Shown here: one piece after another, positions 25,101 to 60,365 of the stretch | Numbering within the stretch: the stretch's first letter is position 1 | Layout: each line of letters begins with the position of its first letter | Assembly (NCBI GenBank): GCA_003344405.1 | Contig: NOWV01000126.1 | Span: 124,001 to 188,000 of the forward strand | Direction of reading: 5' to 3' | Source: Trichoplax sp. H2 | Taxonomy: Eukaryota | DNA length: 64,000 nucleotides | Made by a program: the position numbers and the translations under genes | Notes under the pieces: generated by a model | The model's input: the letters and a program-made list of their open reading frames with translations, nothing else | Databases searched by the model: none | What the model was told of the DNA's origin: nothing

Positions 25101-25342
25101 TGCTGTAATAAACCTGCTGCTACAATAGCAAGAGAACTAAAGAAATAAATTTCATTCTTCTGATAAGAATTAATCAAGCAAAGAACTAGACAGAATGAAC
25201 TGTTAGTCTTAATTGTCTAGATAACACATTGTAACTATTCATCCGTATATTATTTCTAAGAAATAAAGATAAAAATCCGCTTACTGGTAGTCAATAAATA
25301 CCCGTTCTTTGTGGATATAAGTTTAATTATATCATTTTTAAT

Positions 25343-36007: not shown

Positions 36008-36955
36008 ATGGACGTAAATTCGACTGCCAACGATTCCGTGACAAATAAAAGTGGTAATGCTGTAATTCTTCCATTAGGTGTGATTGGGGTTTTATTAAAC
36101 ATCGTTTTATCCATCGTTATCGTAACAGCTAAGCAACTGAAGGCTCCTGCATATATCTTTCTTACTAATTTAGCCATAGCTGACTGTATAATTTCAATTC
36201 TAGTTAGCGTGATGTATTTCCATGATAATTCGATGGTTCATCTCTCAGTATCAACGAATAATATCATTTGCAAAATTTTACATTATATCCTTACTTCTTG
36301 CTATATAGTGTCTGTCTTCAGCTTAGCACTGATAAGCTTGTATAGACTAAGATTGATTTTAGTATCATTTAGGAATTACTTACCGTCAGGACCGTTTAAG
36401 TGGCCGAAATTAACTAGCTTGTCAATATGGTTGATTGGATTCCTCTTGTGTATTCCCATTTCATCTATTGTTCAATACGCCAAAAAGAGACTTCTTTGCG
36501 ATATATCATACCCTTACGGTCAATTATTCAATGTAATATTCTACATTTCTCTTTTTATGCTCGTCTACACTATTCCAGCAATAATTATGCTATTAGCTTA
36601 TATTCGAATAGGTAAAAGACTACGAATGACTGAAGATGCAGTCATGATTTTTAGATCCAATCAGACCGTTCACGGTCATAGAGCCAATACGGCCGTCAGG
36701 TTTCTCTCTATTGCTACTACTATCTACATGCTTTTTTCTTGGCCCTTCTTAACTTCTTCTATAGCGGTCTCCATTATGAATACAACGTTAAGTCATGTTT
36801 ACGAAATGTCAGCTGTTGGACCAGTCTTACTTACGACTTCGTATACAATGACATTCCTAGTCAGCATCATCAATCCAATTTTGTATATAGTGTATGATAA
36901 AAACATTAGATATCAACTTCAAAGAGTACTGTCTAAATACATTTACTTAAAGTAA
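36008..36955 (+). CDS. Intronless class A orphan GPCR, paralogue 4, 315 aa from ATG 36008 (ORF track starts at an upstream TTG)
   Basis: MDVNST start matches paralogue length; GVLLN, LAIAD, CK...SLYRL, CDISYPYG, YTIP, SWP, NPILY, YDKNI. Confidence 0.93.
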   Translation: MDVNSTANDSVTNKSGNAVILPLGVIGVLLNIVLSIVIVTAKQLKAPAYIFLTNLAIADCIISILVSVMYFHDNSMVHLSVSTNNIICKILHYILTSCYIVSVFSLALISLYRLRLILVSFRNYLPSGPFKWPKLTSLSIWLIGFLLCIPISSIVQYAKKRLLCDISYPYGQLFNVIFYISLFMLVYTIPAIIMLLAYIRIGKRLRMTEDAVMIFRSNQTVHGHRANTAVRFLSIATTIYMLFSWPFLTSSIAVSIMNTTLSHVYEMSAVGPVLLTTSYTMTFLVSIINPILYIVYDKNIRYQLQRVLSKYIYLK

Positions 36956-41400: not shown

Positions 41401-42495
41401 TACTTACCTCTTTAAACCACACTAATACATTGGAATCCTATTCTATTGATGCCCTATTTTCTACTTCAGTTCCGCAAGTATAAATGGAAATACGAAATAT
41501 TGATAATATCGTGATAAAAGCCATCGGCGACAATCAGTCATAAGACAGAGAATACTATTTCTATCTGTATGGCCACAGTAAATACCGCAAGAGACGAAAA
41601 ATACTATTGCATAAGGAAGCATTTTAGACTAGGTATATTATAAATGAATTGATTAATCTAAAAGATGTAGAAAATGCAATTTCGAAGTATGTCACTTTGA
41701 GGTATTTATGTAACTTGTAATAAGACAAAACTCAATCCTTATTACTGAAATTGTTTGAAAGAGTTGTAGATTTCGATTTACCTAGGGTTTGTGGTTGTAT
41801 ATGATTTAATTACGAAATAAAATCCATAATTAATGCATACCGATTGTTAAGGCTATGCCGTACTGCATATTGTATTTATAGTATTCTGCATACCTACATA
41901 ATGAATTATCATTACTATCGTTAATTTCAGTGTAGTATGCGTAGAGCATATATTAGAGTAAGAGAGTTACAGTGAGCTCATACAATTTATGTAACGTATC
42001 GAGTTCGTAATGCACTACCGTTTCAACAACCATAGTGATTAGATATAGATATTCAGGAAAACATCGAATCTAATCACATGCTATGACATTAACACAATAA
42101 GTAACTGGAATTTATCTAGTGACTGCTGCTGTAGAGAGGAAAGGTAAAGTAGACTACTACTAGGACAATTTTAATCATCAAGGATGCTGTTAAGTAACGC
42201 TGCACATTGCATGCTGTACAGTACAGTATACGAGACAGTACGTATTTACTTAGTATAGCACTATAGAAAAAGTAGATTAAGTTAGTGAACATAGTTTGTA
42301 AATATTGTAAATATCAATTTTATTAATAGAGAACTTGTAGCTATATTATTAATATTTTATCTATTCATACAGGTTACAGCTTATATTTCAGCGCATAATA
42401 CGAAATCTTAGCGTAAAAGCAATCTGAAATATTCATTAATTAGTCAGAATAAAATTGCTTCTACTGTAAGAGTACTAGTTTATAATTAATTATAA

Positions 42496-45400
42496 TTATA
42501 AATTACAATTCCATCCGCAAAGCATATCGGCTACAATATTTAAGCGATCCTGACCAAATATTAGAGTACCGTCGTTGACTTGAAAAGCGGGTACACCGAA
42601 CGCTCCAGCTTTTAAGGCGCTAGTTAATAAATTAATTATTAATGATAGATGAGTTAATACGACATAGTCAGATACGCGTAAATACTGATATTGATAAATT
42701 TGAGTTCATAAAGTTGTTATCCTACCGAGACATATTTTGTGCAAACTGATCTTTGATATTATCTTCTTCAGCTTTTGATAGAATGTCTTTAGCGTCATAC
42801 CCAGCTTCTTCTATAACCTCAGCAACTACCTATTTGACACGAATTGAAACTGAATTTTGTTTACAGTTGCATAGATAACTTCTATACGAGATAGCATTTC
42901 TAATTTAATAACCTTATCATCACTTAGATCACGATCTGCTGTCCAAAGCTCTTGAACTAGTTTCCAAGTCGATAATAACAATAAGATTTACAGCGGTATA
43001 CGTATTAAATGGATTGGTAAGATAAAATATGGCAAAACAGGATATATGCTAGTGTATGAGTAATTCATGATTTGCCAGCTTACATATTTTTCTACGTAAA
43101 TCTGCAGCATCGTTAACGAGAATCGCACGAAGCGTAGTGGTAGATATGTATGGAAACTTTGAGTTAAACTTGAATGGCATACCACCGCGGAGCGCTATTT
43201 GCATTTGCATGTCTCTACCGGTGGCTTTTAAAAAAGCTGGATTAGCAGCATCCAGAGCTGCCTCCTTTTTATAAGCATATCAATAACTTTCAGATTTAAT
43301 TTGATATCAAAATTGCAAAGCTATTTTGCAATATTCTTCGGTATCAACTTACAACTGGTGCTTTGTTTGCTTGGATTAAACCTGGTAGCGACACAGGTAC
43401 CCATTCTACATCTACAGTTACAGGCTTTAATTGTTCTACCAAACGTTCGATCTAAGTTTTTAGAACCATTTATATTGCAAATTTATTTATTCGTTTAAAA
43501 ACGAAAAAAATTTAAGCAAAACTAATTTACCGCAACGGCTGCTATATAACTCCATGGACTCACGAAATCGTAATAAAATGTAAGTTTAGCTCTATGACCA
43601 GGAGTCGCTGAACTTGGTAATCTTAGTCTCAATTCTGAGGCTTGATTATTGCCCAGCTCTCTTTCTACAAAATATAATCGATCGGGTCCAAAATATATTT
43701 TGCGGGAGACACGAAAGCTAAGTAAAGTACATTATAATGGCATTAATAACAACAAATATAAATACGTATATGTGCGTTGCAGTGATGAATGCAATAGAAA
43801 GATGAACTTTTATCAAGATATTACCATGGTACACGAAATATACCAAGTTTATTTGCTTCTTCATTAAGTTTTTTCAACGGTTCTTCGCCTCTAGCTATCT
43901 GTTGCTGTACATTTAAGCTCAATCCTGCTTCCTTAGCAATATTCTCCAGTACCTAACATAATAATGGCATCAAAATATCAACGCCTTATCATCTAATGAT
44001 ATTATGATGGTTTGTAACAATGTTAAATTAAGTCTTTAATTTCAAAGCCAGGTACCGATAGCTACAATTCATGTTGAAGGGCATATTTGTTACTAACACT
44101 AAATCTCTTTAGAAGATAGACAGTTCGCATCGTAAATCCTGTAATTCTACCTTACTATCTTGAATATCACAATCTTTTAGCCAATAGTGAGAGAATAAAG
44201 CCAACGATAGCTTTTCTCTGTCCCCGTTATTATCAATAGAAGCTAATAGCTTCTGCGGTGTACCATCTTGATCTTCATATCGAGGAGAGCGATTGATTGG
44301 AACATTATATCGTTCACACATCATTTTTAGATCTTTAAATTTTTAGATAATACGAGGTTTATTAGTAACAGTATGCGGTAATCTTTAGATGGTAAGATTT
44401 CAAGTTGATCTATTATAGCAAAGTTTAGGGAAGGAACAATTAACTGTATATATGAGTATGGATATTATATTGTGTTATTGATTGATAACCTGAACGAACA
44501 ACATCATTGCTAAGTTCGGTAAACCGGAAACACAATTTTAATGATTTGCATTATACAATTAACTAAAATCTATATTTTCATAAATACTACGCAAACGTGA
44601 TGTTAAAGATTGCAGCATGCTTGCGCGTAAGTTATGTTTTAATCATTCTACCTCTTTCCATCCAAACTTTCTTTGCGGAACAATCACCTTTAACTATAGG
44701 TGATCCAACACCGGCGCGATCCTTAATAGAGTCTGGAATCAAAGAAATTTACAATTTGTTTTAGTTCTGTGTCATTACGATTTTATTCGTAAATATTTAG
44801 GCGGATGTTGAATAAGTATATTCATGACCGTACGAGTGCAGTAGTTATTACATTTTCAGTAGGACTACTAAAGTGATTATAATTATTGCCAACTATATTC
44901 AACTTGTTATAAAGCAAAATTGATTCTGTAGCAAGCAGGATAATTTCGAAGTGATACCGTAAAAGTGAGGTTTTACATAGTAGCAAGAATCGATCGTACT
45001 GTAATGGGGGTTACATCGTGCATGAAATTATTTTAAAAGAGTAAAAATGATAGGTATTAAAAATTTAGCTTTCAGCTACAACCTCATCGTAGATATTATA
45101 CTTTACTGTATATTCCTGATTATCAAAGCATAAGAAGCACAGTTTTTCTTCAAAATTTTAGACGTAGTACGTTCTAAGTAATACTAATAATTCTCATTAC
45201 TGCATTTCATTCGGCATACAGTATTGCTGTGACCACCAAAACGATTCTATTTATAATTCGATTTACCGTAACTAAGAGAAGTTATAATATGCCACTACCA
45301 GGGACTACTGAAGAGAGAAGACATACGGTTATGAAGCCATCTTATATGTACTATTTTACGATCATTTATCATTACGTTATCAATCCAAGCTAATAGAGAT

Positions 45401-46112
45401 AAATCTATTACTGTACGTGAAAATAAAATCTTGGCAGCAACTATTTTGCGGTATGAACTGCATGAGTATTCCTTTGCAAGATCATTGCTATTCAGATCAG
45501 TAGCAGATTAAATTACTGAAGATGTTGCCATAATTTTAGGATATAAATATTTCCGTGATGTATCGTAACACCGTATTACAAGGACACTCGAATAGATTAT
45601 TTGCTTTATTTTATTGCTGTAGATGTTACATAGAAGTTGTGATGTAATCGCAGAGAGAGCAACGAAAATAAAGTAGGGCTAAGTAGTTTATTAATTTAGC
45701 ACTACTCAGACAATATCTTAGCGCTATAGTAGCATACCGAAGAAGCATATTAATTATATTATCAACTACAGTGCCGTACACTATAGAAATAAATCTGATC
45801 GGGGACTACTTGAGAAATAAGTAATCTCTGGCTCTACTCGATGTAGTCATGATCGCAGTTCAGATGTTGTCCATCGTATTTAAACTGTTTACTAGCAGGA
45901 GAAAATAAAAATTTTGTGATGTGGAGAGGAATATCAAGCACATCGATTCTATCAAATTAGAAGATATGTGGCTCGCACTTTGCATTACCTAAATAAATTG
46001 GCATCCATTGAATTTTTATCGGATTTTCTCGGGGTATGGAACGGAAAGCAGAAACTGCTAAATAGGAAAATGGGCAAGCAATATCATAATAAAACTCGAC
46101 CTCGCTAGCCAT
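42496..46112 (-). CDS. Tandem two-domain DsbA-family / glutathione S-transferase kappa / 2-hydroxychromene-2-carboxylate isomerase-like protein, paralogue A (10 exons, 417 aa)
   Basis: Exons 46112-45989, 44732-44652, 44332-44151, 43952-43825, 43717-43531, 43451-43353, 43264-43084, 42956-42913, 42829-42726, 42619-42496; all introns GT-AG; total 1254 nt in frame. Motifs FYYDIACPFSY...GIFRVPCF...FGPDRL, then FYYDFVSPWSY...GAFGVPAF...FGQDRL; ends WNCNL. Confidence 0.9.
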
Positions 46113-47631
46113 CTTTGCTTTCAGTCCTGCATCTGCATACGGATTCTCAAATTGTAACAATAATACGATGACACAGTCGATGCTTAATTTATTGCAGACG
46201 TAGTCATGTTTACTGTTAAGTGTTTACACTTATTTCCTGTAGTCTAAAGTATAGTATTGTGAATACAGTTAGTACTTTATCTATTGTTACTCGTATAATC
46301 GAACTTTAAAAATAATATCATATGATTATGATTCTTTTTGGACTTTGGACATCTTTGACCTTCTACTAAGATGTCGAGGACATGTGATACAATCACATGA
46401 GTAGTATAACACCATGACTGAACTGTAAACATGGTTCTTCTAGTACTGTATACGCGTCTATCTGTATGCAATATGCACATTTGTCAAAGTACAAATACAC
46501 CATAAATAATGACATACAGTAGATTAAGTATTTATGTCGTAATAGGTTTCTGCCTATATAAGTTCGGTTGACTAAACTTTTTATCATTGAGGTTTAATTT
46601 TACCTGTTGCTCGTTAATAACTGATTTTGTAGTTTTTACGAGTAAAATAGCGTTGATCGTATTAGTTAGAATAAAGTAAAAGTAGCTCAATATTCTGAAG
46701 TTTGCCTGTGTGACTGCAGTGCAGGAGGGTAGTTTTATGCTAAAACTAAAATAGTAGTTGATAGTAGTAAATTAGAAGAGCAGAATACTTTGCTTTATCC
46801 TTGTCAGGAGAGTAGTCCGTGACAACAGTAGACAGTATAACATTTACAATATAGCACAGTCAGGAACTTCTAAGCGGAAACATGCATGCAAAATAAAAAG
46901 TACGAGTACAGTAAGCAAAATACAGTTTAACGAGCGATGCATCGACTAGTCGAAATTAATGCACATTATACAGTACTGATTCTAAACCTATTCTATATCA
47001 GTAGCAGCATCAACACAACAGATATCAATCAAAATCAGTACGGGAACCTTGAAAATGCATATCAGAGCATCTATGCTGCAGACTACCCGCTCGGCAATTT
47101 TAACCTTAAAGATGTTGTAGAACCTTATGTTAAGATCTTTTCGTTTAGTTCCTAGTTCGCCACTGTTTCATTCGTATATTTATCCTACATCTACAATCTA
47201 CAATGTCAAGAAAGATTGTAGACCTTCCTTGTTAAATATATGTCTGATTTTCTTGCAATAAGATTAAAAGAATTCGCTCCAGTATACAGATCATAACTAC
47301 TGGTACAACCATGAACTACTACAGTATATCTACATTGTACAGAGAAATAATGGTGCACTGTACGGGACGGTATAGTCCAGTTCCAGTATTATAGCATGTC
47401 ATAACTTTGCACATTTTTATATTATGGTACCTTAAGTCAACGATTATTGTCTGTAAATATCAATTTTATTAATAGAGAATTTTAATCTTCGGCTATAGTA
47501 TTGTATCTATTGATACTGGCTACAGCTTATATTCGAGTGCATGATATGAAATCTGAGCGTAAAAGCTACCTGAAATATTCATTGATTAGTCAGAATGAAA
47601 TTGCATCTACTGTAAGAATACTAGCTTATAA

Positions 47632-48196
47632 TTACAAATTACAATCCCATCCGCAAAGCATATTGGCTACAATATTTAAGCGATCCTGACCAAATATTAG
47701 AGAACCGTCGTTGACTTGAAAAGCGGTTACACCGAACACTCCAACTTTTATGGCTCTAGTTAATGAATTAATTATTAATGATAGATGTGCGTATACTGTA
47801 CGCAGATAGATGAGTTAATACGACATAGTCAGATAGGCGTAATTACTGATAATAATAAATTTGAGTTCATAAAGTTGCCATCTTACCGAGACATATTTTG
47901 TGTAAACTGATCTTTGATATTATCTTCTTCAGCTTTTGATAGAATGTCTTTAGCGTCATACCCAGCTTCTTCTATAACCTCAGCAACTACCTCTGTGACA
48001 CGAATTGAAACTGAATTTGTTTATAGTTACGCAGATATGATAAAGTGTCTTCTCAAAAATACAAAAGAACTACAGCTTCTTGTAAACTTCACTTTATTAC
48101 ATAAGATTACGTTTCATTGTTGTAACTCTTTCCATCCTGATGAGCAATCGCTTTTAACTAGCGGTGATCCGATACTAGTTCGATTTTTAACAGAGT
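47632..48196 (-). pseudogene. Truncated, rearranged duplicate of paralogue A (exon 2 remnant plus exons 9-10)
   Basis: Exon 10 copy 47755-47632 (GVPAF changed to GVTAF) and exon 9 copy 47990-47887 are near-identical to A, including intron 9 and 3' flank (to ~47450). Exon 2 copy 48196-48126 is 10 nt short (frameshift) with the donor lost; exons 3-8 absent; no exon 1 found. Confidence 0.85.
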
Positions 48197-49323
48197 CTGG
48201 AACGAAAATATCTGCTATCGGCTTTTGTTCTATACAACGGCGATATCACCGTAAATGGTTATACAGTCGGTGATAAGCAAGATAATGCTGAGCTGATATT
48301 GTAACATATGGGCTTTGCAAAATAGCAGTAAAGATTCTAGGCATGGTAATTTCAAGGTTATTCTAGAGATAAATTATAAATCAGGGACTTTTTAAAATCG
48401 TGAAAATCCATCAGAGAAGTTCTAAAATCACAAAGTGCTGCGTAGAATTACAGTAACGTTATTTGATGTAAGTTTATAGGAATTACTGTAATCGCTAACT
48501 GCGAATTCGTTTACTTTCTATACATCTCCCAAAAAGCAACGCTATTATTTATTTCCCGCAAGTTATCTCAAACGGGGTTAGACAGTAAAGTATACTGAGC
48601 GTAAATTGATACTTCATTTTAGAATTAAATCTGCTACGGAAATGCAGCATATCAAATGTTTATGTTTGTATGAGCATCTTGTAGTATACTGTACTGTACA
48701 TACTGTATAGTTCAGTATAGTCAGGTGTCTCAATTGCAAGTCCCTCATTAAGAACAGTAGTTGGACATTACAATTTGTTGTTGATTTTTAACCCCGCAAA
48801 ATGCAGTAGGCGTCACTGGTACTCCGTTATAGCATGTTGATGCTATGTAGGCGTGCATTTAAAGGTAGATGATTTAATTATGATATCCACGATTGCTTAT
48901 CTTCTTGTCGTATTCGTGTAGTGTCATTATCAATAATAGCTATTTATCCATGTGATATACTGTACTGCATAGCAATCGATAATGCATGCAAATGCAAACT
49001 GATGATGTTATTCTACTGTACTGTACTATATACTGTACAATCTGGCATATGCAGCAGGCTCTGTCGGCTAATGAAGAGCATAAGTTGTGTACACTGTAAG
49101 CAGTGAGTCAGCGAAAGTAAGCCCGTCGACGGCCTTGCTTAGTGGAATAATTAGGCCAGAAGAAATGGTCAGTAAACTAGTCCATTTTATGCTAACTTCT
49201 TCAAAGTCATTTGTCTATCGTACAGTATGCGGATCAAGATGTTCATTTGTATAGTGTTCAGTAGTCAGGAACCAACTGAATCACTCCACCAGCATTCTAC
49301 AGTACAATAAGTGTACAGTACTA

Positions 49324-49855
49324 GAGTTCATACTAACAAATGTATTGAAGGTTGGTACTACTCTCAATCAGCATGGAAGACAAGAGATTGTACACGTAGT
49401 TGAAATTAGTGTAAAATTAATCAACTACTAACTCCTATTCTCCCTTTCTTGTACAGTATTGAAAAAGCGACGGCTTCTATACGTACGCCGTTCACACTTA
49501 CAACGCATTATCTTAACAAAATCGAACAAATATAGCGAAGTATATCATAGGGTGGACCGTGCACACTGTACAGGAAGTGGTTGTACTATTTGGAGTTAAT
49601 ACGAACAACTGTGTTGAAGGTTCGTGCTGTACTACTCTCAATCAGCATGGAAAACAAGAGATTGTACACGTACTGTAGTTGAAATTAGTGTAAAATTAAT
49701 CAGCAACTAACTCCAATTCTCCCTTTCTTGTACAGTATTGAAAAAGCGACAGCTTCTATACGTACAGTACGCCGTTCACACTTCCAACGCATTATCCTTA
49801 CAGTATGTAATAGAGTGGACAGAGTACACAGTACTGTACAGTAAGTGATTGCATT
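49324..49855. repeat. Tandem duplication, 2 units of ~270 bp
   Basis: Copies start ~49324 and ~49593; both contain ctactctcaatcagcatgga...gccgttcacactt. Confidence 0.9.
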
Positions 49856-50419
49856 GCCATCAATTGACAATAACGCTCAGTCGCCTACAGACTACAACAA
49901 CACACCTATAGTAAGCACAACTTTGGACATCGGCGCATGACCAGAATTTGGACACCTTTGACCTTTTCAACTCACCAAGAAAACAGAATCGAGCACAGTA
50001 CTGAACTGTACTGTACAATGTGTTTCTTTTCGTTTCCAACTTTTGCATGGCCAATGATTACTATGTGCTTCGACTGTTCTCGCATCGCTATAAAATGGCA
50101 TAAAGTGAAGCAATTTTACCTTAGTTTCAGTAATACTAGTACAAACTCACGTCGCTTTGCTGACGGTTTACGATAATGTTAATAAATTTCTCTACTTCTG
50201 AGTCTGAAAGAAAATAAACACATTAGTACTAGACGTGTTCAGTACAATACTCACTTTTTACAGTACAAATACTGTACAATACACTGTACAGGACAGTACT
50301 GGATACTGTAATGATTGATTATATGGAACAGTATAGTTTATAATTATTTATTCCCCAGTACAGTACAGTAGTGGTGAGACACTTGCTGGTGCACATTGCA
50401 ACAACAATCCTGAGAAAAT

Positions 50420-53400
50420 ATGGCACGTCTGGTAGAATTCTATTATGATATTGCATGTCCATTTTCCTACGTTGCAACGTATTCATTGCGTTCACTTCTT
50501 AGTAGAAGTGATGTAAAGGTAATTTGGAAGCCTGTTCATTTTGGTAAGTTCTCCATTTTTACTGTTTCTTCTTTCTAAATGTACTGCTACACCGTATACA
50601 AAACCAAAACATCAGTCAATCGAATTGTAACCTCCCCATTTTGCGCACAGATCTGCCCATCTCTTTTTCCTCGTCTTATAGTAGTCTCGAGTTACACACT
50701 GTTCAATTGTAAAGTTGTACATCATTTCAATTTCAACAAGTGAATACTATCGGGTATAATGAATGAATTTCACAGCTTTATACCATTGCATTATTCGTAC
50801 TAAGCCTCCTAAAGTGGTCATATTTCAAACTCTGTCTGTCGACAATGTCCTATGCTTATTGCATACTCTCTACTTTTATAGAATAATCGGATCGTATTTC
50901 TACAGCATTTAATATCCAAGGATCTTGTACATGACATGCTAGACTAATAGTAATTGCGTGTGTATGTCGATTCATTTTCAAGTTGCTGTATCAGTGCTAG
51001 CTTGTTGCGAGTCTTTAACATTATAATTTACATTAGCTAAATAATGTACGATATTCCACTTACAGTGACTACCCTGCATTGATCAACGTTATAGTTAGAT
51101 GAATTTTGCTATGCACTTATTCTATTTTATGTGGATGTAGGAAGCATAGACCCCGGCACCGTTATTGGATCACCGATAGTAGATCGTCCTAGCTCGTCGA
51201 AGTCAAATTGGATCTATCAAGGTACTACTACCAAAATCAAATGGATATAGCTGAAACTTCTATAAGAAGCTGATGAAAGCCTACATATGCTCTTTGTGTT
51301 TAAAATATAAATCAGTTTAATGTTCAGATCAACACTGTCAGCTATCTTATCTTATATAAGCTTAAATAGAAAGAGCAAATGTTAGTTAAGTTTTGTGATG
51401 TATTAGCTTAAATGCAATGACTGCAACAGATCATGTTGAGTGAGATTTATTTACAATTGAAGTTACTCTGGGAATTGCAAATAGAACATTTCCCTTTACT
51501 TGTATACTCTTCTTCAAGTATGGCTAAATATTTGAAAGTTGAGAAACTTACCTCAGCATGCACTTATGTACCATATTTAGACGGCCAGACAGATACTAGT
51601 TTCAAATGTCGAAAACAGATTATTAATAGCTTCTGTTTATCTCAATGAATAGATTTACAGATGATGATTAGCAGACTGCAAGTTCCCATTAGGCGACAAG
51701 CGAAACATTTAGATCAAGGAGGAAGTGTACAGAGGCTGCTTGCTTCAATAGATGATAATAGTAACCGTCAAAAACTATCGCTGGCTTTATTTAGACACTA
51801 TTGGCAAAATGGAGGAGATATTCAGAGCATACAGGTTATTACTATTTCAATACAAAACGATTATATTTGTATGTTATATTATATTAGTTATAGGCAACAA
51901 TTCCATCGTACGTAATAAAATTAGACATAATGTGGTTAATTGTATGTTAGATTACGCACACTAAAATAACGTAGCAGCTTTAAGTAAAAGAGATTCATCT
52001 TAAATCAGTTTTAGAATTTACATTAACAATCAAGGGCTATTCGAGCAGTTTTAGAGGATACTATCGATATTAAAAAGCGTAAAAAGTGATTTCTTTCTAA
52101 AGGAAAAAGTAGGATCTGGTTTGACCAACTGCATGCTAAATGGACTTGCCTAAAAATTGAATAACTAATTTTCTATTCCGAGCTCGAACCATATAATACT
52201 TCTTAGCAATACGGTTATATTCTTCAAAATTATTCTAAGATTTTCTATATTTTCGTTACTATTGAAGAATTTGAAAGAAGTAGCCCTCGATGTGGGACTA
52301 TCCATGGATGTTAATAAACAGATTGAAATCGGTGCTGATAATTTAAACAATTTCAATACTGAATCAACCAATAAAGGTGTCTACCGTCTACCAGGGTAAG
52401 CTCGGGATAATGGATTCTCTATCTCAAATACTACCGTTGCTTGCTTTGCAAACCAATAGAATTGCATAAAATCTTAACATCTGTACGCGTACGTACGAAT
52501 ATGTTATTTATAGCTTCTTTGTTGACGGCAAACTTTATCATGGAATGGATCGATTGCATTTTGTAGAGAAGATTCTTGGTAATCCATCGGCTAGAGAGTT
52601 AAGATTAGCACTACCGAATAATGTAGCTGCCGACCATAAGGCTAAACTTACCTTCTACTTTGATTTTGCCAGCCCATGGAGTCACATTGCTAATACTTAT
52701 GTATATGATTAAGAATTAGATGCTTTCAGCTAGCCTATCTGATACAGAGCATACCATAGAATGATGATATAACATTGCACTATCTTTGCCCTTAGATGTC
52801 CTCTTTCTTGAAAGAATTACATCCAGTAAATGTTGAGGTTGAATATGTGCCAGTAATTTTAGGCGCTATTATGCAAGCACTAGGCACTTCAATTGTAAGT
52901 AACATTGGCTATGTTCAAATCGCAACCACAAAATCTAGTTTGTGTCCAATACCAGCAGAATTGAAATGATCATTAAGTAGTGGTGCGTAATACTGTTGCT
53001 AGATTCCGGTACAGAAGATACAGCGATCGAAAGTTCGTGCAAGCAGAGCAGATATGCATGAATACCTTCACCACTTTGGAAATATAACTCTTAAAATGAA
53101 TTCTCATTTTCCTATACAAACGTTGATGTCTCTTCGAGTTGCTATAGCTAATGATAGCGCAGATCTTCGAAGAAGAATATGTATGTGGTTATTACTGTTA
53201 GTGCCGTTATTACAAGAAAAAATTTTTTATGTAACAGCTTTACTATGATAATTTTACTAATAGTTGAAGCAGCTTGGATCAATAATCAGAACATTTCTAA
53301 GACTGAGGTGAATTATCACTATAGGGTTATTCTTTTTAGATTAATTATCGTTTATTTTAGTTTATTTTTTATTGGCTTTGATTCGTAGGTACTAGCCGGA

Positions 53401-53716
53401 ATTATTGAAGAGGCCGGCTTAAATTCGACAACACTTCTTAAGCAGGCACAAGAAGCGAGTGTGAAGTCACAGCTTAAAAATAATGTTATGCGGTATGCTA
53501 GTAAAGGCCTATGTAAAGTGTTGATATCATGATTGGCTGCAGAATAGATTATAAATTTTGATCTAAATTTATAGCGCAATCAAAGCTGGAGTTTTTGGCG
53601 TGCCGAGCTTTCAAGTTAACTCAGGACCTACAATCTTTGGTGCGGACAGAATGAATATCGTTGCTGATATGATTTGCGGTTGGGAATACGTACCAGGAAA
53701 TAATTCTAAACTATAA
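50420..53716 (+). CDS. Tandem two-domain DsbA/GST-kappa/HCCA-isomerase-like protein, paralogue B (10 exons, 422 aa, C-terminal SKL)
   Basis: Exons 50420-50543, 51141-51221, 51653-51834, 52268-52395, 52514-52700, 52796-52894, 53003-53180, 53264-53307, 53389-53492, 53575-53716; GT-AG; 1269 nt in frame; same intron phases as A. Motifs YYDIACPFSY, GVYRLPGF, HGMDRL, YFDFASPWSH, GVFGVPSF, FGADRM; ends GNNSKL*. Confidence 0.9.
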
Positions 53717-54970
53717 AAAGACGCGAAGTAACTATTCGTCTCAAAAGACGTAAGATATCGTATCTCATTAATAAGTTGTTAATCGCTATTAAGTGATATG
53801 ATAATTGCTAGCGTATCGCCATCGCTATATTTCATGCTATAACGACCGATTAATGGTTATGCTTTTATTAAAATTAGGTATGAACTCTAGAAAGGAATGT
53901 AGTTTATTGTTCTAAAAATGTGAATGGTATCGGAAGAAAAAGAATATGTTCATCTTGATAATTGAAACTCTATGGCTACCATTATTTCTGAAGGAACACA
54001 ACTTCGTAAATTTTTATGATACATCGGTGGAGTCTTAACAACTCTAAAGTATGACTGTCTACCTACGGAGCTGCATGTTTTTAAAGAGAATGCAAATGGA
54101 ACTTATTTTTATCTAGCTGAATGCCAATCACGTATTAGTTGCCTTTCGCATTATAATGTCAGATTTACCTTAAGGTTTATAGACTACTGTAAAATCTAAT
54201 GTTATAATGGATGAAATATCTCAAGCACTGGTAGGCTAAAATCGCATTCGTAATCTCAGCAATTAAGATACTATACCTGTGTTAATAAATTTTTGGTGAT
54301 GATGTAGTTATATTGTAAACCCCTTAATCGCTGAAAAGGGATTCTGAATTCTGTGTTAAAATATCAGTAGAATAGGATGTATTGCTGCTATGTTAATTGG
54401 TAAGTAAATAAATACAATTGCAATATCTTTGATAATAAATTAAATTTTATCAAATAAGTTTATCGACAGGATTATTATAGCTTCTGGAAGGGAATACTGA
54501 TTGGGAATTTAGTCACTTATGCAATAACTTAAGGCAGTTATGTAAGTCTGCTTCGATTTTTATTGTCTCCATTGTTCTAAATGAAAAAATATTCATATGA
54601 CGGGTTCGCATGCTCAAGCAGTGCATTATGGTGACCATACAAATATTGCTTTATTGCATTTATAAGCAATGTAGAAGCAATATACTAACAAAGTAAAATT
54701 AAATCTTTCGTACGTATACATACTATCAGCCCCTACATAGGAAGTGCAAACCGTGTTTCTGAAATTTATTCTATCAACCTGGAAAGATATAGTAGCCAAC
54801 AAACGTAACGTATACTGGTATTTAAAGGCTAAGCATCAGGAATTTAAATAGCGGTAGCTTCCTGCAAGACTTAACACTTTGATAATTAGAAATTTATATT
54901 AATTCGTAACTAATTGTTACAGTATCATTATAATAGTAAACAAAAATCAAAACTATGAAAGACATCTACA

Positions 54971-57900
54971 TTAACTATAATTCCAGCCACATATCATATC
55001 CGCTAAGACGTTCAATCGATCCTGCCCAAAGATTATAGGTCCGTCGTTAAGTTGGAAGGTGGGAACACCGAATGCTCCATTTTCGAGAGCCCTATTCGTA
55101 TTTTAATAAAAAAGACATGATAAAATCAATATTAAAAAGTGAAAATTTATAAATATCTGAAAGATGTAATCAATCTGTATTATACGAGACCGTAACCTGG
55201 TGGTATTGTGCCTTAGTTGGTTTCTGACTTGGTCACTTTTAACTTCTGTTAAAATTTTTGAAGAACTTAAGCCACTCTCTTCAATTATTTCGGCTACAAC
55301 CTGTAATCGTTGTTATAATAAATTTTAAAAGTATCAGCTATTTAATGAACTACTCTCAGCGTAATATAGATATCGAAAATTAAATGTAAAGTAACTTACT
55401 TTATCATCACCAATGTTCCGATTTTCTTCCCAGGCAGCTTTAACTGGTTGAGATTAGAGAAAATATTGCTTACTAATATTCTTTATTATGGTTGTATCTA
55501 TAGAACTATGTTATCTTCATCTTCCTTAATAAAACAATTAGAAGTATTAAATTCTAGTTATCATATCTAACTACATGTACATAATAGTCTTACATATTCT
55601 ACTGCGAAGCTCGGAGCTGTTGTTAACAATTGTCGCACGTAATGGCGTGATTGTTGGCATGGGAAAGCTAACATTAAATTTAAAGCTGCCATTTCCTAGA
55701 TAATCTAGATGATCATATATATCGGCCATGGTTGCTTTCACTATGGCAGGCTTTATTGCTTGTATTGGTACCTGTAACATCAAGCAACAGCCAGGTATTA
55801 TTTAAACTCAGATAACATGAAAAGCTATGAAAGACTATGGCTAGCTAATACATCCAAATTATGTTCAACTTACGATCGGGTTTCCTAGAGTTTTGAAGAT
55901 TCCTCCAATAACAACAGGCACATACTCAACTTCTACGTTAATAGGACTCAGCTCTTTCACAAAGTTGGGTAGCTGCAGCGAATTAGTAAATATTTTACAT
56001 TAGTGAAATTTGGTTTAACGATCATATAATCTTCAGATTAGAATATCATCAATATTATTTCATCTACTAACGCGAATAGATGCTATATAGCTCCAGTAAC
56101 TGCTAAAATCAAAATAAAATGTCAACTTAGCATCACGACTAGCGGCAGCAGAATCCGGTGTTGCTAATCTCAACTCTCTTGCAGATTTGTTGCCAATGGC
56201 TCTTTCCACAAAATGTAATCTATCAACTCCACGAAATAGCTTTCCCGAGACGTAGAAACTATATTCAAAGTTGAATCAAAATTAAGCTGCGACAAAAATA
56301 GCACTTTATCATTACCATATTGACGGAATTACGTGCCTGGGCAATCGATATACACCTCTTTCAGATGCTTCCTCGTTGAATGACTGTAATTGGCTTTCCC
56401 CTTTGTCTATTTGCTCCTTAACATTCACTGATAGCCCAAGCTCTTTTACCACAGACTCTAATGACTTTCAATAGCAAGTTTAGTTAATACTTATTCATAT
56501 GAACATTGAAGCTAATATATGGGCATAAAGGCATATAATTACAATTGAATCTGCACTAAAGTAAATTATCAAAAAATTTCTCTCTTTAGTACCACATTTG
56601 TAGTAATTATAACGAAATAGGCGTTTATCATTTCCTTGTTATGGCAATCTTTCAATCTCGTTGGAATTGACTACTTTAAGGGCACTATACTAACTTCGCT
56701 TTCTAGAATATCAGAATTCCTCTCCCAGTACTGTTGATATAAAGCTACAGACAACCGTTGCCTGATGGTATTGTCATCAATTGATGCTAATAATCTTTGA
56801 GCGTTGTGACTGCGCTCGAGATTGTTGTTCTTAGCTTCCAAATGAGCTGGTATTTGCAGCCTTTTTGCTATTATTTGAAGGTCTATAGTTGATATAAGAG
56901 GAGAGAATAAGTAGAGTCAGGATAAGTGCAAACCGTATAGCAGTATTAAGTTAATGCCTTGAGATATTTAGATGGCATTTATATGGTACAAATACTGTAC
57001 ACGTTAACTTTAGTTCATTAACGTCACTAATTTGAAAATTACTATGCGCCTACTGTACACGATACGAAAAGTGACGACCTCTCTGCATCCATTTCAACTT
57101 GGAAGAATTACGAATTCCATCGTCGGTGCTTGTATTTCCTAAAATTGAACCTACGATACGAGATAAAACCAACATAGGATTGCATTAAGCTCCATATTTA
57201 CAAAGAGGCCAAAGTCTGCTATGGCTATAAGATAGTCCGGCAGATGCATGAACGACATAACAAACAACACTTTCCAGCTGGCGACTAAGTACATTTGTCA
57301 GATTTAATCTTTAACTTTTATAATGACGAAATTGTGGTCTATTTAGTATCTAAAAAATAATATTGGCGAATATTACTAAATAGCAATGAGAGAGCACTGG
57401 TGAGATGCAGCGAGATCTTATTTATTATTTGTTACGCGAACGTGTAAGGGCGGTTAAGGTTAGCAGTTATAGTATTGATGTTGATGTACCCGTTTAGTAT
57501 CATAAGGATCACCAATTTACTTGAAAATAATAAATTTTAGCCACTTGGCAAGCGAAGTTTTGCAATATGTTATTCTATTATGTGCAAGGTATGCAAAACC
57601 ACATTGTTACGCAACATTTACAATCCAACATTAATATATAATTCATGATTGAAATGCATTTGGATATATTTTTCTAGATTGTTACCTTCCAAAGTAGAAC
57701 TATAATATTCACTATCATCTGGAACTATTTTATATACTCGCATTATCATGAAAAGCCCTTGCATTACGAGTATGAACTATGATATTATTTAAGTAGCTGC
57801 AGCAATTATTTAATTAAGAGTGAAAAGAATTCATCCACTTTGACTTTCATCAAATTACATCCATCAATGATCATTGTTGTGATTTTTCGAATTCATCAAC

Positions 57901-58801
57901 CAGTACCTATCAACATGTGAATATTAGGACTCCCCTTGGCCTCACGTAGGGCTAGAAATAAAAATAGTAGTATCAACAACACTAGAAACGAGCAGTAGGG
58001 TAGGGTCGGGCAGCTCCCAGCTTGTAATGTCGCTCGATCCAGCAAGCGGTGCCCAGCAAAACATTGCTTCGCTTAATAGTACGATTGCAGCTGGTTTTAT
58101 CTTACCGTCAAATAGATCGTAATCGTTGCACTGAAATGATTCTGTGATTGAACATACTGAAGCCCAATTACGTTAAATTAGTCAATAGATGTTTCTATCG
58201 ATAAGTATTGCTATAAGATGATTCATTAATACAGCTGGATTTATCTTACTGTCAAATGGATCGTAGTCGTGATTCTGTGATTGAACATACTGAAGCCCAA
58301 CTACGTTAAATTAGTCAATAGATGTTTCTATCGATAAATATTATTACAAGGTGATTCATTAATACAGCTGGATTTATCTTACTGTCAAATAGATCTTAGT
58401 CGTAGCGCTGAAATGATTCTGTGATTGAACATACTGCAGCCCAATTACGTTAAATCAGTCAATAGATGTTTCTATCGATAAGTATTGTTACAAGATGATT
58501 CATTAATACTAGCTCGGCAGACAGTTCAATAAAATCAGTTCCTCGTTGAGTGACTTCGGAGCAAAGGTATCTAAGCTGATGTGAGTAGATAAGCGATACT
58601 GAATCCCTGAGACTCCTAAAAATTTACAAATTCGTTTTCAAGTAAACCTTGTCACAACGCTGCTTCGTAATACTTACCAATAGTAATCGGTTTCCATAGT
58701 ACTTTTACCTCTTTATTTCTTAGCAATGGCCGAATAGCATAAGAAGAGAGGTAGGAGAAGGGACAAGCAACATCATAATAGAACTCAATCAGCCGCGACA
58801 T
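54971..58801 (-). CDS. Tandem two-domain DsbA/GST-kappa/HCCA-isomerase-like protein, paralogue C (10 exons, 414 aa)
   Basis: Exons 58801-58678, 57150-57079, 56882-56695, 56464-56337, 56258-56072, 55972-55874, 55771-55594, 55443-55400, 55300-55197, 55091-54971; 1245 nt in frame if intron 4 uses a GC donor. Motifs YYDVACPFSY, GVYRLPSF, RGVDRL, YFDFSSYWSY, GAFGVPTF, FGQDRL; ends WNYS. Confidence 0.88.
58088..58508. repeat. Tandem repeat, 3 units of 144/133/144 bp, in intron 1 of paralogue C
   Basis: Units start CAGCTGG at 58088, 58232 and 58365 and are highly similar. Confidence 0.92.
58510..58672 (+). mobile_element. LTR family B-like 3' segment in intron 1 of paralogue C
   Basis: Aligns with reverse complement of 29180-29345 (cagacagttcaataaa, gatactgaatccc.gagact, cttgtcac). 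Confidence 0.6.
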
Positions 58802-58999
58802 TGAACGTTTTTGGTTGACAAACTATAAACGATTAATTAATACAACAAGATGTGCAACGGCGGCGATCGCCTATACGGTAGCTCTTACCGGCTTATCCGC
58901 TATACAGGTCTACAGTGCTGTATCTTATTTGGCCCATTGTGCACTATACTCTACAGTAACAGACATTGCACGTTCGTGTACAATGCCAATCAAGAAATG

Positions 59000-59448
59000 G
59001 AATGAATTAATTAAGACTAAACTTCCTGCACTACGCTGTAAATTGAGAGCTTCTATATGTTTCAATGGACTTCGAGCCTGTAATTTTACAAATATTGGTA
59101 CCACTGAGAATGAAAACATTTTTACTGTTGTTCAGTGTACCGAATAATTCATACTGATAGCTTATCCACCACTGTTGATCGCTAAAAGCAATGTTGTGCA
59201 ATGGAGCAAAAAGGCAACCCCAACTTAATCAAATTGTTGATTTTCTAACCCGAAATGAATGCAATCGCTATACAAACACTGTATCTGTACAGTGTAGAGT
59301 GCCAATAATGGATTAATACTACACTTCTTCCACTTCGTTGCAAATTGAGATTTTCTATATGATTCAATATACATTGCTGTAGACTTCTACAGCTAGTAAT
59401 TTTACAAATGATTGGTATCACTGAGAATGGAAACATTTTTACTGTTGT
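59000..59448. repeat. Direct repeat pair of ~130-145 bp upstream of paralogue C
   Basis: ~59000-59130 versus ~59308-59448; both end cactgagaatg.aaacatttttactgttgt. Confidence 0.8.
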
Positions 59449-60365
59449 GCATCCCTTTTTAGTTAGTTGGTCGGTTAGATAGTCAACTAGTTTATCAATT
59501 GCTATTGAATTGTAAAGACTATAATCTTGGGTGCCAAGATTTCTTCAGTAATAAATAGTAGTAAATCTCTGACTACCTCGTCTACACTATCAGTGACGCT
59601 ATAATTATACTATAGTATTCGGTCGTTGGGACTGAATTATTTAGTAATATAGCTAATTTCGCCTCTTTAAGTCAGTAAGTGGCGTTCTCCGCAAGGATTG
59701 GCGTGTGTAGACTACTTTGTCACTAGTGGTGTGTGACAGTGCTTGTTATGGTTTAAGATATTATTAATTAACAATGTGATAATGTTATTGAAGTAGAAGT
59801 AGACGGTTACGTTTAGATAATCGTAAATATTATGATCTGTTGAAAAATTGTGAGATTCAATCGTTAAAGGACTTCCATTAACGAATGTGTAGAAGTAAGG
59901 TACTTAATATGCCAATGACGTGTAATAACCGAAATGGCGGTTGTCACACTTGTAGGGAATCTGTTAAATCTTAAACAGGATTTAAGTTGTTAATTGGGGC
60001 TATAATATTATTAGCGCATAATATCAATTAACACATATTTGTCCGATAGTAATTAATAGGATTACAAAGTTATAGAAAAGACTAAGTTATGTATAAGAAT
60101 AACTAACAGATTGCAAAGGTGTAGAATTGATATAAGTATATAAGAGGTGGTAATTTACCTCGCTGGAGAGGAGGAAAATAAGGAGACCTAATAAAGTTAG
60201 TTTAGTAAATTTATCCAGACGCTTCTAGTCCGCCTTTTACTGTTGACTGAGGTCCTTCGCTGAAGTAGAGTGAATAGTGACGCTTGGTGGCAGTTTTACT
60301 GTATGACAGAATGGAGTAGGGATAAATGTGGAAAGGGAACTCGATTGTTGCAAACGACGTTGTGG

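What the first reader, a model, noticed from the sequence alone, without database searches (positions are those of the whole stretch)
42496..58801. Cluster of fused two-domain DsbA/kappa-GST enzymes carrying one Cys site and one Ser site per chain
Seen: three intact genes, each encoding two homologous domains in tandem. Domain 1 has YYD(I/V)A-C-P-F-S-Y in all three; domain 2 has DF(V/A/S)-S-(P/Y)-W-S. Established: animal GSTK1 and bacterial HCCA isomerase (NahD) are single-domain ~200-225-aa homodimers with a catalytic Ser at the position of the first DsbA Cys, and CxxS is the monothiol glutaredoxin-type motif. Inference: a covalent pseudo-dimer pairing a thiol-redox or deglutathionylating half with a GSH-transferase/isomerase half. 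Domain 1 also consistently replaces GxFGVP with Gx(F/Y)R(V/L)P, suggesting a changed GSH pocket. This locally expanded family is almost invisible in the ORF track.
Basis: partly seen in the sequence, partly recalled or inferred. Interest (0 to 1): 0.85.

Follow-up and report, generated by a model that had tools for sequence, protein, structure and literature searches.

The report
Tandem two-domain kappa-GST-like genes, Trichoplax
Three neighbouring placozoan genes each encode two fused kappa-glutathione-transferase-like domains, the first with a catalytic-position cysteine and the second with a serine; this belongs to a widespread but unstudied protein family that may give peroxisomes a glutathione-dependent thiol-repair enzyme.

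Summary
Window 42496-58801 holds three intron-rich paralogues, A (-), B (+) and C (-), with 10 exons each, plus one decayed partial copy. Genes A and B translate exactly to Trichoplax sp. H2 models P0001 (417 aa) and P0003 (422 aa). Each protein has two DSBA (PF01323) domains. Domain 1 carries C-P-F-S and domain 2 carries S-P-W-S (S-Y-W-S in gene C). One exon spans the domain junction. Spliced contigs cover A and B, with 9 of 9 introns of B shown.

The architecture is not peculiar to this locus. Cys in domain 1 with Ser in domain 2 occurs in 99 of 113 two-domain cluster representatives and in 79 of 80 bacterial loci, mostly Myxococcota. Named eukaryotic members come from cnidarians, a sponge, fungi, Corallochytrium and an amoeba, and most end in PTS1-like tripeptides. 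Gene B ends in -SKL.

Both domains fold like GSTK1 and HCCA isomerase (Z about 21). The family-wide motif is CP[YF]A, which matches the Cys-GST motif rather than a CxxS glutaredoxin motif.

I found no paper on this family. My best reading is a GSH-dependent Cys/Ser hetero-functional pseudo-dimer, peroxisomal for gene B. The function is inferred, not shown.

The parts
42496..46112 (-). Gene A, 10 exons, 417 aa. Exons: 46112-45989, 44732-44652, 44332-44151, 43952-43825, 43717-43531, 43451-43353, 43264-43084, 42956-42913, 42829-42726, 42619-42496. Ends in -CNL.
   Evidence: The spliced translation is 100% identical to P0001. All 9 introns are GT..AG. Six introns are shown as joints in contigs of X15, X6 and X10. 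Pfam DSBA matches twice.
46065..46076 (-). Gene A, domain 1 motif C13-P-F-S.
   Evidence: Cys13 aligns with Ser16 of human GSTK1 in the phmmer alignment.
43531..43717 (-). Gene A exon 5. A single exon that encodes the end of domain 1 (GPDR), the linker, and the start of domain 2 (S225-P-W-S at 43560-43549).
   Evidence: Joints on both sides lie in one contig.
47635..48245 (-). Decayed partial copy of a gene A-like paralogue. Exon 10-like piece at 47769-47635 (76% identity, cis-Pro changed to Thr), exon 9-like piece at 47993-47886 (94%), weak exon 2-like piece at 48245-48126 (40%).
   Evidence: tblastn and ORF translations. No equivalents of exons 1 and 3-8 were found.
50420..53716 (+). Gene B, 10 exons, 422 aa. 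Exons: 50420-50543, 51141-51221, 51653-51834, 52268-52395, 52514-52700, 52796-52894, 53003-53180, 53264-53307, 53389-53492, 53575-53716. CPFS at 50456-50467, SPWS at 52671-52682. Ends in -SKL.
   Evidence: 100% identical to P0003. Nine of 9 introns are shown as joints in X15, X6 and X10; X15 record 8 (1703 nt) runs from 50350 to 54208.
54971..58801 (-). Gene C, best model 414 aa. Exons: 58801-58678, 57150-57079, 56882-56695, 56464-56337 (GC donor), 56258-56072, 55972-55874, 55771-55594, 55443-55400, 55300-55197, 55091-54971. CPFS at 58765-58754, SYWS at 56101-56090. Ends in -NYS.
   Evidence: Exons 2-10 are as in P0010, apart from the exon 4 donor. Exon 1 is as in the T. adhaerens model P0166. 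The choice of exon 1, exon 2 and the short exon 4 rests on depth arithmetic on one X10 contig. The joints themselves were not displayed.
57686..57764 (-). Alternative first exon used by the database model of gene C (P0010, 406 aa). That model lacks the CPFS motif.
   Evidence: The bin 57277-57827 has zero contig depth in X15, X6 and X10. This is only a hint.

Best explanation
The region is a placozoan-specific tandem expansion of an ancient gene: three expressed paralogues and one relic. The protein is a single chain made of two kappa-class-GST / HCCA-isomerase-like (DsbA-fold) domains.

Shown here: the gene structures, splicing, the two-domain fold, the Cys/Ser asymmetry and its conservation across the family, and the -SKL end of gene B.

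Inferred mechanism:
- Both domains keep the cis-Pro loop and the G-x-D-R motif, which correspond by alignment to GSTK1's FGLP and FGSDR. I therefore expect both to bind glutathione; the role of these motifs in GSH binding is recalled, not read.
- Domain 2 (Ser225) would act like GSTK1 Ser16. It would stabilise the GSH thiolate for conjugation, peroxide reduction or isomerisation.
- Domain 1 (Cys13, in a CP[FY][AS] motif identical to that of Omega, Lambda, DHAR and CLIC Cys-GSTs) would act as a thiol transferase or reductase. The Cys13 thiolate attacks a glutathionylated or oxidised substrate, forms a Cys13-SG mixed disulfide, and is regenerated by a second GSH, giving GSSG.
- The two domains pack in a fixed way, as a covalent pseudo-dimer.
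- Gene B (-SKL), like most eukaryotic homologues, is probably peroxisomal. Genes A (-CNL) and C (-NYS) have probably left that compartment.
- The placozoan Arg two residues before the cis-Pro of domain 1 probably reshapes that pocket.
For: Gene models and expression:
- Exact matches to P0001 and P0003.
- Spliced contigs in X15 (RNA by record) and in X6 and X10.
- Exon length patterns are nearly identical in all three genes: 124/81/182/128/187/99/181/44/104 in A, against 124/72/188/128/187/99/178/44/104 in C.

Fold:
- AlphaFold2 model with pLDDT 91.4 and pTM 0.91.
- VIA-align: residues 211-413 match rat GSTK1 1r4w at Z 21.6; residues 215-417 match HCCA isomerase 2imd at Z 21.6; residues 1-205 match human GSTK1 3rpp at Z 21.3.
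- Best Foldseek hit is 3rpn_A at E 4e-9.
- Cys13 aligns with GSTK1 Ser16.

Conservation:
- Cys/Ser pairing in 99 of 113 representatives and 79 of 80 bacterial loci.
- D10, C13, P14, P171, G182, D184 and P226 are invariant in the 101-sequence alignment A2.

Fixed domain packing:
- pTM 0.91.
- The Atlas model matches bacterial two-domain models over residues 1-414 at TM 0.88.

Cys-GST motif and mechanism: Table 2 and mechanism passage of PMC4138524.

Peroxisome link:
- Of eight named eukaryotic homologues, four end in -SKL, one in -ARL, one in -AKM and two in -ASL.
- GSTK1 is the only known human peroxisomal GSH-consuming enzyme, and it shows Ser16-dependent disulfide-reducing activity (abstract and passages of PMC10295636).

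Lineage-specific expansion: A+B+C clade with SH-aLRT 100 inside an animal clade.
Against: - No activity, ligand or localisation was measured. The function is inferred from motifs and homology only.
- Gene neighbourhoods in 80 bacterial loci give no metabolic clue. The commonest neighbour is a hybrid histidine kinase in 14 of 80 loci.
- Whether the domain 1:domain 2 interface equals the GSTK1 dimer interface was not tested.
- The Trichoplax proteins depart from the family at several positions that are conserved in at least 85% of the others. In all three: G43S, P88 changed, T159N, G169R and W398F. Gene C has also lost the near-invariant Pro of the S-P motif. GSH binding in domain 1, or in domain 2 of gene C, could therefore be altered or lost.
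- -CNL and -NYS are not canonical PTS1 signals, and the PTS1 consensus I applied is recalled, not tested.
- X6 and X10 are only guessed to be RNA.
Confidence: 0.55

Rival explanations
1. The proteins are what the databases call them: GSH-dependent isomerases of the HCCA-isomerase (NahD) type. They would act on an unknown endogenous chromene-, quinone- or lipid-like substrate, with no net redox chemistry, and the Cys would serve only as a variant GSH-activating residue.
For: The source names are '2-hydroxychromene-2-carboxylate isomerase'. The structural match to 2imd at Z 21.6 equals the match to GSTK1. phmmer hits 2imd with domain 1 and 3fz5 with domain 2.
Against: The names are automatic transfers from homology. 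None of the 80 bacterial loci shows a conserved aromatic-catabolism neighbour. The strict Cys-in-one, Ser-in-the-other pattern and the Cys-GST-type CP[FY]A motif are not explained by a single isomerase chemistry.
Confidence: 0.2
2. Only one domain is catalytic. The other is a structural pseudo-subunit retained because kappa enzymes need a dimer partner, or it is a redox-sensing regulatory half whose Cys switches the Ser site on or off by glutathionylation.
For: Fused pseudo-dimers often keep only one active site (general knowledge). The Trichoplax domain 1 has changes in all three paralogues at 4 of 21 conserved columns, against 2 of 25 in domain 2. Domain 2 of gene C has lost the conserved Pro.
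Against: Both domains keep the active-site residue, the adjacent Pro, the cis-Pro and the G-x-D-R motif across bacteria and eukaryotes. That is hard to reconcile with a dead domain. The 4 against 2 difference is small.
Confidence: 0.15
3. The proteins are protein-folding or disulfide chaperones, in the way mammalian GSTK1/DsbA-L is reported to assist adiponectin multimerisation, rather than small-molecule enzymes.
For: They have a DsbA-like fold. GSTK1 is also described as DsbA-L in PMC10295636 (introduction passage).
Against: Neither domain has a CxxC dithiol. There is no signal peptide; the motif starts at residue 10 of the chain. The bacterial members would therefore be cytoplasmic.
Confidence: 0.1

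Closest known systems
Kappa-class glutathione transferase GSTK1 / DsbA-L (PDB 1r4w, 1yzx, 3rpn, 3rpp)
   Same: Same DsbA-like fold for each domain (Z 21.1-21.6). Domain 2 has Ser in an S-P-x-S motif at the position of Ser16. The cis-Pro loop (GxFGVP) and G-x-D-R motifs are shared. Gene B carries a C-terminal peroxisomal-type signal.
   Different: GSTK1 chains are single-domain, 226-234 residues long, and the enzyme is described as dimeric (PMC10295636). Here two diverged copies (26% identity) sit in one chain, and the first has Cys where GSTK1 has Ser16. Sequence similarity to GSTK1 is only E about 5e-10.
2-hydroxychromene-2-carboxylate isomerase NahD (PDB 2imd) and the putative HCCA isomerase 3fz5
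   Same: Same fold (Z 21.6 and 19.3). It is the name under which these genes are annotated.
   Different: Those chains are single-domain, 202-203 residues long. No naphthalene-pathway context was found here or in the bacterial relatives. Catalytic equivalence was not tested.
Cys-GSTs: Omega (CPFA), Lambda (CP[F/Y]A), DHAR (CPFC/S), CLIC (CPFS), GHR/Xi (CPWA)
   Same: The active-site tetrapeptide of domain 1 is CPFS here and CP[YFW]A in most relatives. It matches their catalytic motif (PMC4138524 Table 2). This suggests the same single-Cys mixed-disulfide chemistry.
   Different: Different domain topology. Cys-GSTs have an N-terminal Trx domain followed by a C-terminal helical domain (PMC4138524). 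Here the fold is DsbA/kappa-like. The resemblance is convergent, not membership.
Uncharacterised two-domain 'HCCA isomerase family proteins' of Myxococcota and of cnidarians, a sponge, fungi, Corallochytrium and an amoeba
   Same: Same length (about 400-470 aa), the same two DSBA domains, the same Cys/Ser pairing and whole-length structural similarity at TM 0.88. The Trichoplax genes are members.
   Different: The Trichoplax copies are triplicated. They carry Arg in place of the Gly before the cis-Pro of domain 1, and Ser rather than Ala at motif position 4. Two of the three lack a PTS1-like end.

Membership tests
Pfam DSBA (PF01323), DsbA-like thioredoxin-fold domain | HMM match above the gathering score | tested here: met
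   P0001 scores 179.1 bits against a cut-off of 25.6, with two stretches. P0002 scores 163 bits, with two stretches.
Classical DsbA-type dithiol oxidoreductases | CxxC active-site dithiol | tested here: not met
   Domain 1 has CPFS and domain 2 has SPWS or SYWS. Neither motif has a second Cys.
Kappa-class GST (GSTK1) | Kappa/DsbA-like fold: thioredoxin fold with inserted helical domain | tested here: met
   Z 21.6 (1r4w, model 211-413) and Z 21.3 (3rpp, model 1-205), on a model with pLDDT 91.4.
Kappa-class GST (GSTK1) | Catalytic Ser at the first position of the S-x-x-S motif (Ser16) | tested here: inconclusive
   Met in domain 2 (S225 in A and B, S224 in C). Not met in domain 1, where Cys13 aligns with Ser16.
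Kappa-class GST (GSTK1) | Homodimer of single-domain subunits of about 226 aa | tested here: not met
   Two domains lie in one chain of 414-422 aa. Exon 5 bridges them and single contigs span both.
Kappa-class GST (GSTK1) | GSH binding and GSH-conjugating or peroxidase activity | not testable with these tools
   Only motif conservation was seen (cis-Pro, G-x-D-R).
HCCA isomerase (NahD) | Isomerase activity within a naphthalene or aromatic catabolic pathway | tested here: inconclusive
   The fold matches (2imd, Z 21.6). No conserved catabolic neighbours were found in 80 bacterial loci. Activity is not testable here.
Cys-GSTs (Omega, Lambda, DHAR, CLIC, GHR) | Catalytic motif CP[FYW][ACS] | tested here: met
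   CPFS in all three genes. In the relatives, the first motif position is Cys in 102 of 113 and position 4 is Ala in 95 of 113. Motif list taken from PMC4138524 Table 2.
Cys-GSTs (Omega, Lambda, DHAR, CLIC, GHR) | Canonical GST fold: N-terminal Trx domain plus C-terminal all-helical domain | tested here: not met
   The best structural matches are kappa/DsbA-type chains. The definition of the fold comes from PMC4138524.
Two-domain Cys/Ser 'HCCA isomerase family' proteins (uncharacterised) | Two DSBA domains in about 400-470 aa, with Cys-Pro in domain 1 and Ser-Pro in domain 2 | tested here: met
   Genes A and B meet it fully. Gene C has Ser-Tyr in domain 2. The pairing is seen in 99 of 113 representatives and 79 of 80 bacterial loci. 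Whole-length TM is 0.88.
PTS1-targeted peroxisomal matrix proteins | C-terminal (S/A/C)-(K/R/H)-(L/M) tripeptide (consensus recalled) | tested here: inconclusive
   Gene B ends in -SKL, which meets it. Gene A (-CNL) and gene C (-NYS) do not. Actual import is not testable here.

The most novel reading that the evidence does not exclude
This family would be an ancient hetero-functional kappa-GST pseudo-dimer. Its Cys half would be the long-sought GSH-dependent thiol-disulfide oxidoreductase (deglutathionylase) of the peroxisomal matrix in non-bilaterian animals, fungi and protists. That half would be coupled in one chain to a Ser-type GSH-activating half. The gene is shared with Myxococcota. Placozoans have triplicated it and sent two copies out of the peroxisome with a remodelled, Arg-bearing Cys pocket.
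Probability: 0.3. Interest if true: 0.7.

Novelty: new variant of a known kind. Interest (0 to 1): 0.5.

Why it matters
How peroxisomes keep protein thiols reduced is an open question. [quoted passage not shown] GSTK1 is the only glutathione-consuming enzyme known in human peroxisomes, and it has no active-site Cys (PMC10295636).

The family described here is conserved and widespread, and most of its named eukaryotic members carry PTS1-like ends. It joins a Cys-type and a Ser-type kappa domain in one chain, which makes it a concrete and testable candidate for that role in early-branching eukaryotes. It would also be the first Cys-class counterpart within the kappa/DsbA-fold GSTs.

Its presence in both Myxococcota and eukaryotes is worth a proper phylogenetic study. 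For genome annotation, the name 'HCCA isomerase' is probably misleading, and the database models of gene C appear mis-spliced.

Tried and rejected
- Bacterial gene context. ORFs were called on 80 loci, filtered on GC3 and clustered. The most frequent neighbour was present in only 14 of 80 loci and is a hybrid histidine kinase. The others occurred in 7 loci or fewer (Ser/Thr kinase, RNase R-like, D-Ala-D-Ala ligase, sigma factor, FAD protein). This gave no functional clue.
- The whole genome of the window is not held, so other paralogues or a single-domain GSTK in this organism could not be sought.
- Complex prediction on domain 1 against domain 2 was not folded, so nothing was learned about the interface.
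- NCBIfam gave only sub-threshold thioredoxin-like hits.
- A search with exon 1 of gene C found nothing at E <= 0.001. The T. adhaerens model P0166 nevertheless carries that exon, so the blank was a sensitivity limit.
- A 45-nt exon at 57951-57907 first looked like exon 2 of gene C and is used by P0166. I rejected it in favour of 57150-57079, which is homologous to exon 2 of genes A and B and fits the contig depth. The zero contig depth over 57277-58378 in X15, X6 and X10 is only a hint.
- The joint 47754 to 42726 in one X15 contig is probably a mis-placement of another strain's last exon on the partial copy. The tool skipped the repeat at 42400-42514.
- Earlier findings of the scan: none.
- Literature searches for a described two-domain or Cys-type kappa enzyme found nothing relevant. 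Robinson et al. 2004 (PMC1224102) is not held. Supplements were not consulted.


Full report
**What the region is**

The window is AT-rich (about 30-37% G+C) and intron-rich. A stop-to-stop ORF list over 42000-59500 shows short coding blocks with clear similarity to one another on both strands.

A search with the exon that spans the domain boundary (43525-43731, minus strand) returned two proteins at 97-98% identity. One is '2-hydroxychromene-2-carboxylate isomerase [Trichoplax sp. H2]' (P0001, 417 aa). The other is TRIADDRAFT_63921 of T. adhaerens (P0002).

Splicing the window at GT..AG sites reproduces P0001 exactly for gene A (minus strand, 46112-42496, 10 exons). It reproduces P0003 exactly for gene B (plus strand, 50420-53716, 10 exons, 422 aa). 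The window therefore corresponds to Trichoplax sp. H2 DNA.

**Gene C**

Three models of gene C exist.
- The H2 database model P0010 (RDD39677.1, 406 aa) matches the window exactly. It starts at an exon at 57764-57686 and so lacks the first strand and the CPFS motif.
- My model joins exon 1 (58801-58678; 124 nt as in A and B; donor GTAAGT) to exon 2 (57150-57079, homologous to exon 2 of A and B). It uses a GC donor after 56337, which makes exon 4 128 nt long as in A and B and gives GVYRLPSFYVSG instead of a 7-residue insert.

In the laid contigs, depth is flat per contig. One X10 contig (1644 nt, depth 30.9) predicts bin depths of 11.05, 19.63, 13.63, 12.84, 0, 0 and at least 7.34 under my model. 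The observed values are 11.1, 19.7, 13.6, 12.7, 0, 0 and 8.95. The H2 annotation predicts 14.81 in the fourth of these bins, 4.43 where 0 is seen, and 0 where 8.95 is seen.

The gene C joints were among the '20 more not shown' rows. This is therefore an inference and not a displayed junction. Under every model the protein has two domains.

**Transcripts**

Four runs were laid on 42400-58900. X15 is RNA by record. X6, X10 and X4 are guesses, and all four are kept as contigs, not raw reads.

- X15, X6 and X10 carry intron-less joined forms. All nine introns of gene B are shown in each of the three. Six of the nine introns of gene A are shown.
- X15 record 8 (1703 nt) spans 50350-54208.
- X4 shows no joints and covers introns, so it looks like DNA or unspliced material.
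- In all three genes exon 5 (187 nt) encodes the end of domain 1, the linker and the start of domain 2.

**A fourth copy**

At 47635-48245 (minus strand) lie exon 10-like (76% identity), exon 9-like (94%) and weak exon 2-like (40%) pieces of a gene A-like copy. The cis-Pro of the exon 10-like piece reads Thr (GVFGVT). I regard it as a relic.

**Domains, motifs and fold**

- Pfam DSBA hits P0001 at 179.1 bits with two stretches.
- Domain 1 against domain 2 of gene A gives 26% identity at E 1.4e-15.
- The phmmer search against PDB sequences returns only GSTK1 (1yzx, 3rpn, 1r4w; E about 5e-10), 3fz5 and 2imd. Its alignment puts Cys13 on Ser16 of human GSTK1.
- An AlphaFold2 model built on a 101-sequence alignment has pLDDT 91.4 and pTM 0.91.
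- Foldseek and VIA-align rank GSTK1 and HCCA isomerase first for both domains (Z 21.1-21.6). FrnE and other DsbA-like proteins follow.
- No listed match among solved structures spans both domains.

**How common the architecture is**

An exhaustive phmmer scan of 1.84 billion cluster representatives gave 2464 hits at E <= 0.001 and 106 at E <= 1e-30. Most of the 150 listed are 370-480 aa and match residues about 4-414 in one stretch.

Named members come from these organisms:
- Cnidarians: Nematostella, Desmophyllum and Xenia.
- A sponge: Oopsacas.
- Corallochytrium.
- An amoebozoan: Stenamoeba.
- Fungi: Paraglomus (two species), Calcarisporiella and Polyrhizophydium (a 1038-aa model with four stretches).
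- Bacteria: a Deltaproteobacteria MAG.

In the species-representative genome collection, at least 569 stretches encode a relative. The search pattern targets the domain 2 motif, so single-domain relatives may be included in that count. The best 80 all cover both domains, and most are Myxococcota by title (Nannocystaceae, Kofleriaceae, Polyangiaceae, Enhygromyxa salina).

The ESM Atlas lists clusters of 63-135 members named 'HCCA isomerase family protein', mostly Myxococcota. One matches the Atlas model of P0001 over residues 1-414 at TM 0.88.

I saw no named bilaterian member, but I cannot claim that none exists.

**The asymmetry is the family signature**

I aligned the 113 other representatives of 370-480 aa.
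- The domain 1 position is Cys in 102, a gap in 7 (truncated N-termini), Asp in 3 and Ser in 1.
- The domain 2 position is Ser in 110 and Cys in 3.
- The Cys/Ser pair occurs in 99 of 113.
- In the 80 bacterial loci it occurs in 79, and one locus is Ser/Ser.
- Position 4 of the domain 1 motif is Ala in 95 and Ser in 8.

CxxS is therefore the minority form. CP[YF]A, CPFS and CPWA are the catalytic motifs of the Omega, Lambda, CLIC/DHAR and GHR Cys-GSTs. These enzymes work through a Cys-SG mixed disulfide that GSH resolves (PMC4138524, Table 2 and mechanism passage).

Both domains keep the cis-Pro and the G-x-D-R motif.

**Placozoan peculiarities**

- A, B and C form a clade (SH-aLRT 100) on a long stem (0.73). 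The clade sits within an animal group that includes the sponge and the cnidarians (support 98), inside a clade of 19 rows (support 95) that holds all the named eukaryotes. The tree has 35 rows and was built by the quick IQ-TREE method. Pairwise identities are 46-52%.
- Arg replaces the Gly two residues before the cis-Pro of domain 1 in all three genes and in none of the 113 others.
- Of 46 columns conserved in at least 85% of the others, six are changed in all three paralogues: G43S, P88, T159N and G169R in domain 1, and L255 and W398F in domain 2. Gene C alone has Tyr for the near-invariant Pro of the S-P motif.

**Targeting**

Gene B ends in -SKL. Eight named eukaryotic homologues end in -SKL (four), -ARL, -AKM and -ASL (two). 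The bacterial ones do not. Genes A and C end in -CNL and -NYS. The PTS1 consensus I applied is recalled.

GSTK1 is peroxisomal and mitochondrial, and it has Ser16-dependent disulfide-reducing activity (PMC10295636, abstract and passages).

**Mechanism and its limits**

I commit to a GSH-dependent Cys/Ser hetero-functional pseudo-dimer, as set out under Best explanation.
- Shown: gene structure, expression, fold, motif conservation and the -SKL end.
- Inferred: GSH binding, the chemistry of each site, peroxisomal import and the equivalence of the interface to the GSTK1 dimer.

Bacterial neighbourhoods gave no clue.

I found no paper describing a two-domain or Cys-type kappa enzyme. The library lacks most subscription journals, Robinson et al. 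2004 was not held, and supplements were not seen.

**Verdict**

The fusion is a widespread family that is already catalogued but has not been studied, rather than a local oddity. I score interest at 0.5 and rate it a new variant of a known kind.

Noticed in passing
window 50135-50179: A 45-nt piece lying about 240 nt upstream of the gene B ATG. Contig depth over it is very high (141-488) in all four laid runs. Many contigs carry different long loose ends (up to 255 nt) just before 50130-50135 and short ones after 50179. It looks like one short sequence joined to many different RNAs, either a spliced-leader-like element or a repeat end. It is single-copy in the window, with no Rfam or tRNA match. 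No GT lies exactly at the boundary on the minus strand. A search for 'Trichoplax' with 'spliced leader' and 'trans-splicing' listed 8 papers. I read one of them and it did not bear on the point.
   Followed up: partly
window 5697-6719, 18136-19104, 25298-26305, 35903-36955 (+): Four intron-less ORFs of 322-350 aa, all matching rhodopsin-family 7tm_1 receptors (E 2.5e-26 to 3.2e-36). They form a tandem GPCR array upstream of the cluster.
   Followed up: partly
gene C, window 54971-58801; also P0002 and P0004: The public gene models disagree. The H2 model P0010 uses another first exon. The T. adhaerens model P0166 uses a 45-nt exon at 57951-57907. Both use a donor 21 nt further downstream in exon 4. 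The T. adhaerens models of genes A and B (384 and 348 aa) are shorter than the H2 models.
   Followed up: partly
window 47452-47754 and 42726: One X15 contig joins 42726 to 47754, with 33 mismatches and 12 gap letters on the 47-kb side. It is probably another strain's last exon and 3' UTR placed on the partial copy, because the tool skipped the repeat at 42400-42514.
   Followed up: no
family alignment, domain 2 cis-Pro loop (gene A residues 382-387): Many homologues have G-[VLAI]-C-G-[VA]-P, that is, a Cys two residues before the cis-Pro of the Ser domain. The three Trichoplax genes have Phe at that position. A second, differently placed thiol may matter for the family's chemistry.
   Followed up: no
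window 4383, 11322, 11816, 15791, 29357, 33041: Six runs of 20 N, which are assembly gaps. All lie outside the finding.
   Followed up: no
P0012 (Polyrhizophydium stewartii, 1038 aa): A chytrid model with four matched stretches. It is either two tandem genes merged by annotation or a four-domain protein.
   Followed up: no
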